Below, piece after piece: positions 51,001-54,000 of a stretch of DNA of 64,000 nucleotides. The first letter of the stretch is position 1. Each line of letters begins with the position of its first letter. Location: IMG/VR virus record IMGVR_UViG_2877245776_000006. One strand, written 5' to 3'. The DNA comes from a virus. Taxonomy: Duplodnaviria > Heunggongvirae > Uroviricota > Caudoviricetes. Made by a program: the position numbers.

Positions 51001-54000
51001 ACACTGACGGGGTTGGTTTAATCCGCTTTTGGGAGGTTTTCGAGGCCTCGGCGCGGAGTATAGTCAGTATTGGACGCAGTCGTCAACCATCGCCGTTTCT
51101 TTGGCTGTGTCGAGGGTGAGGTGGTAATCCTTGCGGTTGTGACCGCCTCTACCAGATGTTTGCTTTCCCAAATTGGAAAGCAAAATATAGTCTTGATTTT
51201 CAATGAATTCGTATTCTGAAATGCGATTTGTAATCCATGCCGCAAACACCTTTTTCACGCCTAAAAAAGCATGCAGATCGCGGGCATTGCAGAGTAGGGC
51301 TGTTTCGTTGTCGATAGTGCCGTTGAATACGGGGATGAGTTGACTGGTCATGATGACCTCCTTGTAAGTTTAGTTAGCTCAACCAGTTAGTAGCTGGTTG
51401 GTCGGGTGTCAACTGAGCCTTACAAGAAGCTCTGGGCATATTCCCCTTACGGGTATTGTATTACGCCTCTCCACCCGACCTTTGTACGGATGTGACTATG
51501 CCGCATTACGGGCATAAAAAAGCCGCAAAGCTATCGGGTGCGGATGACCGCTTGTAAGTTCAGTGCGGTCAGTATGCGATAGCTCTGGCGGATTTGTCAA
51601 ATCGTGCAGTAACATCCTTTTCTTCCTTGCCATTTCTCAATGATGACAAAGGGTGGATTCGGATTGGTATTGGGACAAAAGTGAGACACACAAAGCTTTG
51701 CATCGGCTTACAAAGCTTTGCATGTTTTTCAATGTTGGGACGTGTGAGCGCAGAAATGACGGGCTATCTAATTGATTTTAAACGATACGTAACCAACTTT
51801 AAAATCTTTGCACGCCAGTTCGCAGGTTTTACAGCCAGTACAGCGGCTGGAATCGATAAAAAATCCATATTGTGTGGTCACGGGCTACTCCTTAAACCTT
51901 TTCGATCTGGACAAGATTGCTGTGCGACGGGTTTCCCTTTGCCAGCGGTGAAGGGCGGTGAGAGGTCAGAATATTGATACTGCCGCCGTGATCGACCCGG
52001 TCACCAAACATATCCGCTTTAAGCCAAGCACCTTGCCCGATGGCGGTAACGCCAGGCAGAATACGCGGAGTCACTTTTGCGGCAATCAGCATTTCTCCAT
52101 TATTGTTAAATACCCGCACGGTATCGCCATGACGGATACCGCGTGCCTGAGCATCAATGGGGTTGATCCACACCTCTTGTGGGCAGGCCTGCTGTAACAC
52201 ATCAATATTGCCGTAGCTGGAGTGGGTACGCGCTTTGTAATGGAAGCCCGTTAACTGCAGTGGATAGGTTTTCCGCAGGGGATCGTCCCAGCCATCAAAA
52301 CCTGGGGTATACGCAGGAAGGGGATGAATAACTTCATCTTTTTTCAATTCCCAGGTATCCGCAATCTTCGCCAGTCGTTCAGAATAAATTTCGATTTTCC
52401 CCGAAGGTGTTTTCAACGGGTTTGCCTGTGGATCTTCACGGAATGCGCGGAAAGCGACGTAGTGTTCTTCCGGGCATTTTTTCTTAAAGATCCCGGTCGT
52501 TTTCATCTCCTCGTAGTCGGGCATCTCAGGGTTACGTTCCTTCGTTTTCGCATGGAGATATTTGATCCATTCATGCTGACTGCGACCTTCAGTAAAGGTT
52601 TGATAAACGTCTGGTCCTAAGCGTTTGGCGACTTCACTCAGCATCCAGTAGATGGGTTTGCGTTCAAATTTTGCTGAGGTTGCGGGTTGGGCGAGGATCA
52701 CATAGCCCATATTCCCTGCAGATTCATGAGAGATAAGGTCTTCTTGCTCTGTTGGCATCAGGTCGGGCAACAGGATATCGCAATACTTAGCCGAGGCCGT
52801 CATGAAGTGGTCAATGCCAACAATCATCTCGCACTTGCTGTCATCCTGAAGCACCTCATGGGTGTGATTGATGTCGCCATGTTGATTGATCAATGTGTTA
52901 CTGGCGTAGCACCATAAAAACTTGATGGGGACATCCAGTTTTTCTTTTCCACGAACACCATCACGGGTCGGGTGATGCTGCCAACTTACTGATTTAGTGT
53001 ATGATGGTGTTTTTGAGGTGCTCCAGTGGCTTCTGTTTCTATCAGCTGTCCCTCCTGTTCAGCTACTGACGGGGTGGTGCGTAACGGCAAAAGCACTGCC
53101 GGACATCAGCGCTATCTCTGCTCTCACTGCCGTAAAACATGGCAACTGCAGTTCACTTACACCGCTTCTCAACCCGGTACGCACCAGAAAATCATTGATA
53201 TGGCCATGAATGGCGTTGGATGCCGGGCAACTGCACGCATTATGGGCGTTGGCCTCAACACGATTTTACGTCACTTAAAAAACTCAGGCCGCAGTCGGTA
53301 ACCTCGCGCATACAGCCGGGCAGTGACGTCATCGTCTGCGCGGAAATGGACGAACAGTGGGGCTATGTCGGGGCTAAATCGCGCCAGCGCTGGCTGTTTT
53401 ACGCGTATGACAGTCTCCGGAAGACGGTTGTTGCGCACGTATTCGGTGAACGCACTATGGCGACGCTGGGGCGTCTTATGAGCCTGCTGTCACCCTTTGA
53501 CGTGGTGATATGGATGACGGATGGCTGGCCGCTGTATGAATCCCGCCTGAAGGGAAAGCTGCACGTAATCAGCAAGCGATATACGCAGCGAATTGAGCGG
53601 CATAACCTGAATCTGAGGCAGCACCTGGCACGGCTGGGACGGAAGTCGCTGTCGTTCTCAAAATCGGTGGAGCTGCATGACAAAGTCATCGGGCATTATC
53701 TGAACATAAAACACTATCAATAAGTTGGAGTCATTACCAAACGGTTGAAATGTATGCCGCTACTTACGGGTCCTGTAATCCTCTGAATAAACCAGAGGGA
53801 AAAGATGATTTCGACAAAATTTACCGCTTCTTGGAGGACCGCTATATCAAAAGCTTAGAGGACGCAGGGATCAAATCCCCAGTGAAGTCACCATTGTCCT
53901 GAGAACTTGCAGAACGTCATGATCATAACTTCCATCCAAACCGCGACGGCGAATTGCTTCTCGTATTACCGGAAGCAGTTCGCTGGAAATCTCGGTGCAT

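What the first reader, a model, noticed from the sequence alone, without database searches (positions are those of the whole stretch)
51540..51900. Probable prophage-host junction inside a ynfG/dmsB-like gene, with candidate arm-type repeats
A minus-strand ORF starts with a strong Shine-Dalgarno and 27 codons matching the conserved N-terminus of the DMSO-reductase Fe-S subunit, then diverges into a short phage-derived tail and stops. Immediately prophage-side lie direct repeats ACAAAGCTTTGCAT (two copies, about 51701-51733) and repeated CTTGTAAGTT motifs, consistent with integrase arm sites. The integration would inactivate this anaerobic reductase operon.
Basis: partly seen in the sequence, partly recalled or inferred. 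Interest (0 to 1): 0.5.

Follow-up and report, generated by a model that had tools for sequence, protein, structure and literature searches.

The report
Stx1 prophage right end in ynfG
This is the already published right-hand junction of a Shiga-toxin-1 prophage (Shigella phage 75/02 type) inserted in the host gene ynfG, and the repeats next to it belong to a P22-type attachment-site arm, where they are more likely excisionase sites than integrase arm sites.

Summary
A minus-strand ORF (51768-51881) encodes the first 28 residues of YnfG, then 9 phage-derived residues and a stop. Host identity ends at a 7-bp core, CTTTAAA (51797-51803), shared by attB and attP. The window is 100% identical to Shigella sonnei phage 75/02 Stx over the two stretches compared. 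Integration of this phage and of POC-J13 into ynfG is published, and 78 of 5,426 complete E. coli genomes carry the same junction. The integrase lies about 9.8 kb left of the window start.

The arm-site reading is only partly right. The int-distal arm (about 51662-51803) is homologous to the P arm of P22-type attP, and Int is 71% identical to P22 Int. The motif that behaves like an arm-type site is TGGGAC/TGAGAC (51671, 51682, 51736, plus two copies at the int end). It is invariant in 61 relatives and changes together in both arms in distant relatives.

That fits excisionase binding and bending sites best. They also form a hairpin on the int-sense strand. CTTGTAAGTT is unrelated to att. The finding is ordinary and already known.

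The parts
51768..51881 (-). Truncated ynfG' ORF: 28 YnfG codons (GTG start) followed by 9 phage-derived codons and a stop.
   Evidence: PGAP annotates the same fragment as an incomplete 4Fe-4S protein in related genomes
51888..51893 (-). Shine-Dalgarno AAGGAG of ynfG. It overlaps the ynfF stop codon.
51797..51803 (.). Common core (overlap region) CTTTAAA. This is the only stretch identical in attB, attP and both junctions.
51804..51811 (.). Host-side core-type half-site ATCTTTGC. In intact ynfG it is the inverted partner of GCCAAGAT.
   Evidence: read directly from the sequence; protein binding is inferred
51789..51796 (.). Phage-side core-type half-site GTAACCAA.
   Evidence: inferred
51736..51751 (-). 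Core-proximal Int arm-type site: TGGGAC within the conserved block TGGGACGTGTGAGCGC.
51688..51735 (-). Fixed 48-bp interval with four phased 10-bp units (T-NN-AAA). Probable Xis binding and bending region. It also forms a 17-bp hairpin on the int-sense strand.
51671..51687 (-). Distal pair of Int arm-type sites: TGGGAC 51671-51676 and TGAGAC 51682-51687, 11 bp apart.
51892..52970 (-). 3' part of ynfF, cut by IS1 at 52970/52971.

Best explanation
Window 51797-51803 is the crossover core of the int-distal junction of an Stx1-converting lambdoid prophage of the Shigella phage 75/02 / POC-J13 type. The prophage is inserted in codons 26-28 of ynfG, the Fe-S subunit gene of the YnfEFGH selenate/DMSO-type reductase.

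A P22-family tyrosine integrase, encoded about 9.8 kb left of the window start next to the other junction, recombined two sites. One is attP (GTAACCAA-CTTTAAA-GTTGTTGC). The other is an attB that offers a 7-bp overlap flanked by an inverted repeat (GCCAAGAT-CTTTAAA-ATCTTTGC). This geometry matches the tRNA anticodon arm used by P22.

The roughly 140 bp on the phage side (51662-51796) is the P arm of a P22-type attP. It carries Int arm-type hexamers TGGGAC/TGAGAC at 51671, 51682 and 51736. The interval most likely binds the phage's P22-like Xis and bends the arm for excision.

Shown here: the junction, the core, the homology to P22-type attP, and the behaviour of the motifs across relatives. 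Inferred: which protein binds which motif. Integration splits ynfG irreparably, because the phage supplies no replacement N-terminus.
For: Junction and core. The alignment with K-12 ynfF-ynfG breaks at 51797. A four-way alignment of attB, the window junction and both junctions of genome NZ_CP145707 leaves only TTTAAAG/CTTTAAA in common.

Identity and prior knowledge. The window is 100% identical to KF766125.2 / NC_029120 over the two stretches compared, window 1-25000 and 49500-51800. Int sits at record position 52-1215 and has a Pfam Phage_integrase domain. The ynfG site is published, and POC-J13 re-lysogenised MG1655 in ynfG (PMC4193171, PMC5447701, PMC10562709). 78 of 5,426 complete E. coli genomes carry the same junction.

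P22 relationship. The arm at 51665-51782 is 82-85% identical to ST64T and other P22-like attP arms. Int is 71% identical to P22 Int. A P22-Xis homologue overlaps the int start.

Arm-type hexamers. GTCCCA is the most repeated hexamer in attP and sits at the same relative positions in both arms. It is replaced coordinately by GGCACA in HK75 and TGACAC in EhrS59, and the Int N-terminal 70 residues of those two phages are only 54-56% identical. The hexamers are invariant in 61 distinct IMG/VR sequences.

Interval. It is exactly 48 bp in 61 of 67 unique sequences. T is conserved at positions 14, 24, 34 and 44, and AAA at 8-11, 17-19, 27-29 and 37-39, while the rest varies. RDFs bind tandem repeats one helical turn apart (PMC7498355).
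Against: No binding data could be consulted. The P22 footprinting papers (Smith-Mungo 1994, Mattis 2008) are not held, so the assignment of Int versus Xis sites rests on comparative patterns and analogy with lambda.

ES18 and P22 have identical Xis N-terminal halves but very different interval sequences. Any Xis recognition must therefore be degenerate.

The interval also shows hairpin covariation, which a pure protein-site model does not require.

The left junction of this particular genome lies outside the window and was not seen.
Confidence: 0.8

Rival explanations
1. The two ACAAAGCTTTGCAT copies are the integrase arm-type sites, bound by the Int N-terminal domain.
For: They are exact direct repeats 77-110 bp from the core in the attP arm. 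A third ATGCAAAG lies on the int side about 65 bp from the core. They resemble the host half-site GTGCAAAGAT.
Against: The int-side copy is not conserved in relatives. The 14-mer sequence is replaced by unrelated sequence in many phages that keep the same Int type and the same flanking hexamers, for example ES18. A different motif, GTCCCA, shows the two-arm distribution, the invariance and the co-variation with Int expected of arm-type sites.
Confidence: 0.08
2. The repeats matter as an RNA hairpin on int-sense transcripts that cross attP. It would act as a terminator or a sib/tI-like processing site, and integration would separate it from int. In the prophage it would insulate the ant genes from read-through out of ynfEFG. 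This function could coexist with protein binding.
For: A 17-bp hairpin of -23.1 kcal/mol with z = -4.65 forms on the minus (int-sense) strand. The plus strand gives only z = -0.9, because several pairs are G-U. P22 folds likewise with z = -3.3. The scan flags it as terminator-like. Across 59 sequences, 73% of cells are paired against 67% in shuffles, the covariation score is 0.200 against 0.132 (0 of 500 shuffles reach it), and pairs 26-55 and 32-49 switch CG/UA.
Against: The hairpin is absent (z about 0) in several sub-families that keep the 10-bp periodicity and the arm hexamers. The U-run starts 5 nt after the stem here and is lost in other hairpin-bearing variants such as ...GTCCCAAATCTG. 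The structure was derived from one of the aligned sequences, and the sequences are related, so the shuffle control is inflated. A dyad-symmetric protein site would give the same covariation.
Confidence: 0.2
3. The palindromic repeats are operators for a dimeric regulator of the antirepressor operon promoter.
For: Each unit contains the perfect palindrome CAAAGCTTTG. A promoter-like TTGACA-18-CATACT lies downstream at 51600-51571 on the same strand as antA.
Against: The repeats travel with the P22-type int/att module. They are present in P22-like phages that have gtrABC, not ant, next to attP. They are absent from Stx2 phages such as VT2-Sakai and EDL933-Stx, whose match to 51480-51600 stops before the repeats. 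They lie about 90-150 bp upstream of the candidate promoter.
Confidence: 0.04
4. The junction is not a site-specific integration product but an IS- or recombination-mediated rearrangement, or an assembly artefact.
For: An IS1 without a target duplication sits 1.2 kb away, and the flanking host region is rearranged.
Against: The identical junction, base for base, occurs in many independent genomes that have an intact ynfF and ynfE. The matching int-ynfG 3' junction shares the 7-bp core. Site-specific integration into ynfG has been shown experimentally (PMC4193171).
Confidence: 0.01

Closest known systems
Shigella phage 75/02 Stx (KF766125.2 / NC_029120.1) and Shigella phage POC-J13 (KJ603229), Stx1a-converting lambdoid phages integrated in ynfG (S1742)
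   Same: 100% nucleotide identity to 75/02 over window 1-25000 and 49500-51800, and 97% to POC-J13 over 49500-51800. POC-J13 Int is 100% identical to 75/02 Int. Same host gene.
   Different: The window's prophage is about 759 bp longer than the deposited record somewhere between window 25000 and 49500. Here ynfF is additionally cut by IS1.
Salmonella phage P22 attP/Int/Xis module (heterobivalent tyrosine integrase; attP about 260 bp, attB 27 bp according to PMC4111918)
   Same: Int is 71% identical. There is a Xis homologue. The P arm is 82-85% identical to that of P22-like phages such as ST64T, and the arrangement of GTCCCA hexamers and TGCAAA units at 10-bp spacing is the same as in P22 itself. 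The 7-bp core aligns with P22's TTACGAA.
   Different: P22 shares 46 bp with the 3' part of tRNA-Thr thrW, starting beside the anticodon loop, and it regenerates the tRNA. This phage shares only 7 bp with a protein-coding gene and destroys it.
Phage lambda attP P arm (P1-H1-P2-X1-X2-F-H2) and the sib/tI retroregulator
   Same: It works alike. Arm-type sites lie on both arms. Directly repeated RDF sites lie in the int-distal arm, 20 bp start to start like X1 and X2 (from general knowledge of lambda). A hairpin lies beyond att on the int transcript.
   Different: There is no sequence similarity. The Int N-domain gives no sequence match to any solved structure. Here the putative RDF array lies between two sets of arm sites.

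Membership tests
Prophage-host att junction made by a tyrosine integrase | Host sequence identity ends at a short core that is also present in attP and attB. | tested here: met
   a 7-bp CTTTAAA is shared by K-12 attB, the phage record's attP and both junctions
Prophage-host att junction made by a tyrosine integrase | The other prophage end carries the rest of the host gene next to an integrase gene. | tested here: met
   Met in related genome NZ_CP145707, where int abuts the ynfG 3' part, and in the phage record, where int is at 52-1215. For this genome the end lies about 9.8 kb outside the window and could not be seen.
Prophage-host att junction made by a tyrosine integrase | Site-specific integration has been demonstrated experimentally. 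| not testable with these tools
   Literature only: POC-J13 lysogens of MG1655 and 2457T carry the phage in ynfG/S1742 (PMC4193171)
P22-type attP/Int/Xis recombination module | Integrase homologous to P22 Int over its full length. | tested here: met
   71% identity over 97% of the protein; Phage_integrase domain
P22-type attP/Int/Xis recombination module | Arm DNA homologous to the P22 attP arm, with the same repeated hexamer on both arms. | tested here: met
P22-type attP/Int/Xis recombination module | P22-like excisionase gene overlapping the int start. | tested here: met
   TIGR01764 excise domain scores 28.5 bits against a cut-off of 28.8. The gene lies outside the window.
P22-type attP/Int/Xis recombination module | Target is the 3' part of a tRNA gene, which is regenerated on integration. 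| tested here: not met
   The target is the ynfG coding sequence with only 7 bp of identity, and nothing is regenerated. For P22.
   The int-side ATGCAAAG is not conserved. The interval sequence is variable while Int and the hexamers are conserved.
Int arm-type sites (claimed for TGGGAC/TGAGAC) | The same motif occurs on both arms, is conserved, and co-varies with the Int N-domain. | tested here: met
   Binding itself is not testable here.
RDF (Xis) binding array | Tandem direct repeats about one helical turn apart in the int-distal arm. | tested here: met
   10-bp periodic T-NN-AAA. The general rule is from PMC7498355.
RDF (Xis) binding array | Protection and bending by the cognate Xis. | not testable with these tools
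   The P22 Xis footprint paper (PMC2519534) is not held.
Intrinsic terminator / sib-like hairpin | Stable hairpin followed directly by a U-run, conserved across relatives. | tested here: inconclusive
   The hairpin is significant on the minus strand and shows some covariation. It is absent in several sub-families, and the U-run is offset and not conserved.

The most novel reading that the evidence does not exclude
The phased repeat block in the attP P arm may have two functions. As DNA it would be the Xis binding and bending region. As RNA it would form a hairpin on int-sense transcripts that cross attP. That hairpin would act like lambda sib/tI, down-regulating int from the circular phage only. 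In the prophage it would shield the antirepressor genes from read-through out of the anaerobically induced ynfEFG operon.

Related to this, the ynfG target (5-bp inverted repeat plus 7 nt) would be a coding-sequence mimic of the tRNA anticodon arm used by the P22 family. That would show how such an integrase was retargeted from a tRNA gene to an ORF.
Probability: 0.15. Interest if true: 0.35.

Novelty: already known. Interest (0 to 1): 0.15.

Why it matters
The junction marks where an Stx1-converting phage sits in Shigella and E. coli, so it is useful for typing and for PCR detection of lysogens. However, the site and the phage are already published.

This analysis adds three things. It gives an exact 7-bp crossover core. 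It recognises that the recombination module is of P22 type. It corrects which repeats are likely Int arm sites and which are likely Xis sites. These points could guide excision and integration experiments, but they do not change current understanding.

Tried and rejected
- Searched the window for the ynfG 3' part to find the other junction: none was found, so it lies outside the window.
- Searched for the exact source genome among complete E. coli genomes: no record has the ynfG'-ynfF'-IS1-second-prophage arrangement.
- Tested CTTGTAAGTT as an att motif and rejected it. It is not enriched. One copy lies just upstream of the antA Shine-Dalgarno. The other is in a segment shared with Stx2 phages such as VT2-Sakai and EDL933-Stx, whose match stops at about 51600.
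- Tested a third ATGCAAAG on the int side as support for arm-type status: it is not conserved.
- Ran an Rfam scan of 50000-53000. Nothing explains the repeats. A mir-19 hit at 26 bits against a cut-off of 50 is chance.
- Ran a PDB sequence search with Int to find a lambda-type arm-binding domain: only catalytic-domain matches came back.
- Tried to read the P22 attP and Xis footprinting papers (PMC2519534, PMC93925): neither is held. Two further literature searches gave no site maps.

Full report
**Observation**

The region was read directly and its ORFs listed. The minus-strand ORF 51768..51881 encodes MTTQYGFFIDSSRCTGCKTCELACKDFK followed by VGYVSFKIN and a stop. Its first 28 residues are identical to K-12 YnfG, so the count is 28 codons, not 27. 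It is preceded by AAGGAG at 51888-51893. Its start codon is GTG, where K-12 has ATG.

Upstream on the same strand lies the 3' part of ynfF. Nucleotide identity with K-12 ynfF-ynfG runs without a gap down to window 51797 and then stops.

The repeat ACAAAGCTTTGCAT occurs twice, exactly, at 51690-51703 and 51710-51723. CTTGTAAGTT occurs at 51361 and 51551.

**What the junction is**

The query 50900-53100 found the same antA / 4Fe-4S fragment / ynfF arrangement in 78 of 5,426 complete E. coli genomes. In one of these, NZ_CP145707, PGAP annotates the fragment as an incomplete 4Fe-4S protein. In that genome the other prophage end has a site-specific integrase directly next to a ynfG that lacks its N-terminus, followed by ynfH and dmsD.

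A four-way alignment of K-12 attB, the window junction and both junctions of that genome leaves only TTTAAAG in common (CTTTAAA on the plus strand, 51797-51803). The sites are:
- attB: GCCAAGAT-CTTTAAA-ATCTTTGC, an 8-bp imperfect inverted repeat around 7 bp.
- attP, rebuilt from the phage record: GTAACCAA-CTTTAAA-GTTGTTGC.

The phage supplies no substitute N-terminus, so ynfG is inactivated. The lost part includes the first Cys cluster, CTGCKTCELAC.

**Identity and prior knowledge**

Window 49500-51800 and window 1-25000 are both 100% identical to Shigella phage 75/02 Stx (KF766125.2 / NC_029120.1). Window position 1 corresponds to phage position 9831. The integrase (record 52-1215) and the left junction therefore lie about 9.8 kb beyond the window start. 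The window carries an Stx A subunit gene at 11076-12032 (RIP family).

The ynfG site is published for 75/02 and for POC-J13 (PMC5447701). POC-J13 lysogens of MG1655 and 2457T were shown to carry the phage in ynfG/S1742 (PMC4193171). An avian STEC Stx1a prophage is also reported in ynfG (PMC10562709). The junction is thus already known.

**The arm**

A sensitive blastn of 51480-51800 against phage records split the region in two.
- 51480-51609 is 92-93% identical to Stx2 phages such as VT2-Sakai and EDL933-Stx, and those matches stop at about 51600, short of the att arm.
- 51665-51782 is 82-85% identical to P22-like Salmonella phages. In ST64T the match lies between gtrA and int, which is attP.

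The 75/02 Int is 71% identical to P22 Int. An ORF overlapping the int start is a clear P22 Xis homologue. The recombination module is therefore of P22 type, joined to an ant module at about 51610-51660.

**Which repeats are arm-type sites**

I aligned attP from eleven phages of this Int family. I also collected 61 distinct P-arm sequences from IMG/VR with the conserved 16-mer GCGCTCACACGTCCCA.

In int orientation the architecture is fixed:
- Two GTCCCA hexamers 11 bp apart inside the int 3' coding end.
- The core.
- A proximal GTCCCA.
- An interval of exactly 48 bp (61 of 67 unique sequences).
- A distal GTCYCA-N5-GTCYCA pair.

The hexamers are invariant. In more distant relatives the hexamer changes in both arms together: GGCACA in HK75 and TGACAC in EhrS59. 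The Int N-terminal 70 residues of these two phages are only 54-56% identical to 75/02, against 77% for P22. That is the behaviour expected of arm-type sites. In the window they are TGGGAC 51671-51676, TGAGAC 51682-51687 and TGGGAC 51736-51741.

They lie inside the 48-bp interval (51688-51735). Across the family the interval sequence varies widely, but it keeps a strict 10-bp periodicity. T is conserved at positions 14, 24, 34 and 44, and AAA at 8-11, 17-19, 27-29 and 37-39. In P22 this reads as GAAAGACATG-CAAAGCCTTG-CAAACCGATG-CAAAGATTTG. In 75/02 two of the four phased units are identical, which produces the 14-mer repeat 20 bp apart.

Recombination directionality factors bind head to tail to tandem repeats one helical turn apart (PMC7498355). 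P22 Xis is reported there to bend att DNA strongly. The most likely role is therefore the Xis binding and bending region between the arm sites. This step is inferred, because the P22 footprinting papers could not be read.

One caution applies. ES18 and P22 have identical Xis N-terminal halves but very different intervals, so recognition must be degenerate. The extra ATGCAAAG near the int stop is not conserved and is probably chance.

**Hairpin rival**

Because the unit is palindromic, the two copies also form a 17-bp hairpin. On the int-sense (minus) strand it folds at -23.1 kcal/mol with z = -4.65. On the plus strand it gives only z = -0.9, because several pairs are G-U. P22 behaves likewise, with z = -3.3.

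On 59 aligned sequences, 73% of cells pair against 67% in shuffles. The covariation score is 0.200 against 0.132, reached by 0 of 500 shuffles, and there are CG/UA switches at two pairs.

Against this, several sub-families lack any hairpin while keeping the periodicity. The U-run is offset and not conserved. The control is also inflated by the relatedness of the sequences and by deriving the structure from one member. A sib/tI-like or insulating RNA role therefore remains possible but unproven.

**CTTGTAAGTT**

One copy lies just upstream of the antA-like gene's Shine-Dalgarno: on the minus strand the sequence reads AACTTACAAGGAGGTCATCATG. The other lies in the segment shared with Stx2 phages such as VT2-Sakai and EDL933-Stx. 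Both are more than 235 bp from the core, outside the P22-type arm, and the motif is not enriched. They are not att elements.

**Target geometry**

P22 attP shares 46 bp with thrW nucleotides 31-76, starting beside the anticodon loop TTCGTAA. In the family alignment the 75/02 core TTTAAAG lines up with P22's TTACGAA.

The ynfG site AAGAT-CTTTAAA-ATCTT has the same 5-bp stem plus 7-nt loop geometry as an anticodon arm. This suggests, as an inference, how a tRNA-targeting integrase lineage came to use a coding sequence.

**Surroundings**

IS1 (52971-53738, 768 bp) cuts ynfF and has no 9-bp target duplication. Beyond it lies the immunity and replication region of a second lambdoid prophage. The ynf operon is therefore disrupted twice in this genome.

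**Verdict**

The junction interpretation is right and already published. The arm-site assignment of the named repeats is probably wrong in detail. Novelty: already known. Interest: low.

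Noticed in passing
window 50855-50940 (-) and 51392-51480 (-): Two matches to Rfam sRNA-Xcc1 (RF02221) score above the gathering cut-off (74.5 and 71 bits against 53). Each ends about 40 nt upstream of the start of an antA-family antirepressor ORF (starts at 50814 and 51351). This suggests a leader or sRNA element linked to ant genes.
   Followed up: no
window 52971-53738: A complete 768-bp IS1 truncates ynfF. The flanking 9-mers differ (CACGGGTCG and AAACGGTTG), so there is no target duplication. This implies an IS1-mediated deletion or rearrangement, not a simple insertion.
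   Followed up: partly
window 53739-64000: Beyond IS1 lies the early region of a second lambdoid prophage. It includes a RelE/ParE toxin-antitoxin pair, a cI-like repressor (55184-55714, minus strand), cro-like and YdaT-like genes, a replisome organiser and a DnaC-like gene. It is about 89% identical to E. coli prophages.
   Followed up: partly
window 51879-51881: The ynfG start codon is GTG in this window but ATG in K-12 and in E. coli NZ_CP145707.
   Followed up: no
window 25000-49500: The offset between window and NC_029120 coordinates changes from 9830 to 9071. The prophage here is therefore about 759 bp longer than the deposited record. This fits the 753-bp tail-fibre difference mentioned in PMC5447701.
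   Followed up: no
window 51480-51660: There is a mosaic joint here. 51480-51609 is 92-93% identical to Stx2 phages such as VT2-Sakai and EDL933-Stx, whereas 51665-51782 is P22-type attP arm. A promoter-like TTGACA-18-CATACT (51600-51571, minus strand) lies in the shared segment, upstream of the Xcc1-like element and antA.
   Followed up: partly
window 51792-51808; L015 (P22) about 2020-2035: The ynfG attB (AAGAT-CTTTAAA-ATCTT) has the stem-loop geometry of a tRNA anticodon arm. The 7-bp core aligns with the thrW anticodon-loop sequence in P22 attP.
   Followed up: partly
window 11076-12032 and 38875-47295: There is a Shiga toxin A-subunit gene (RIP family). There is also a 2,806-aa polyvalent protein with LPD5, LPD1, MuF_C and LPD38 domains at the end of the late region.
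   Followed up: no
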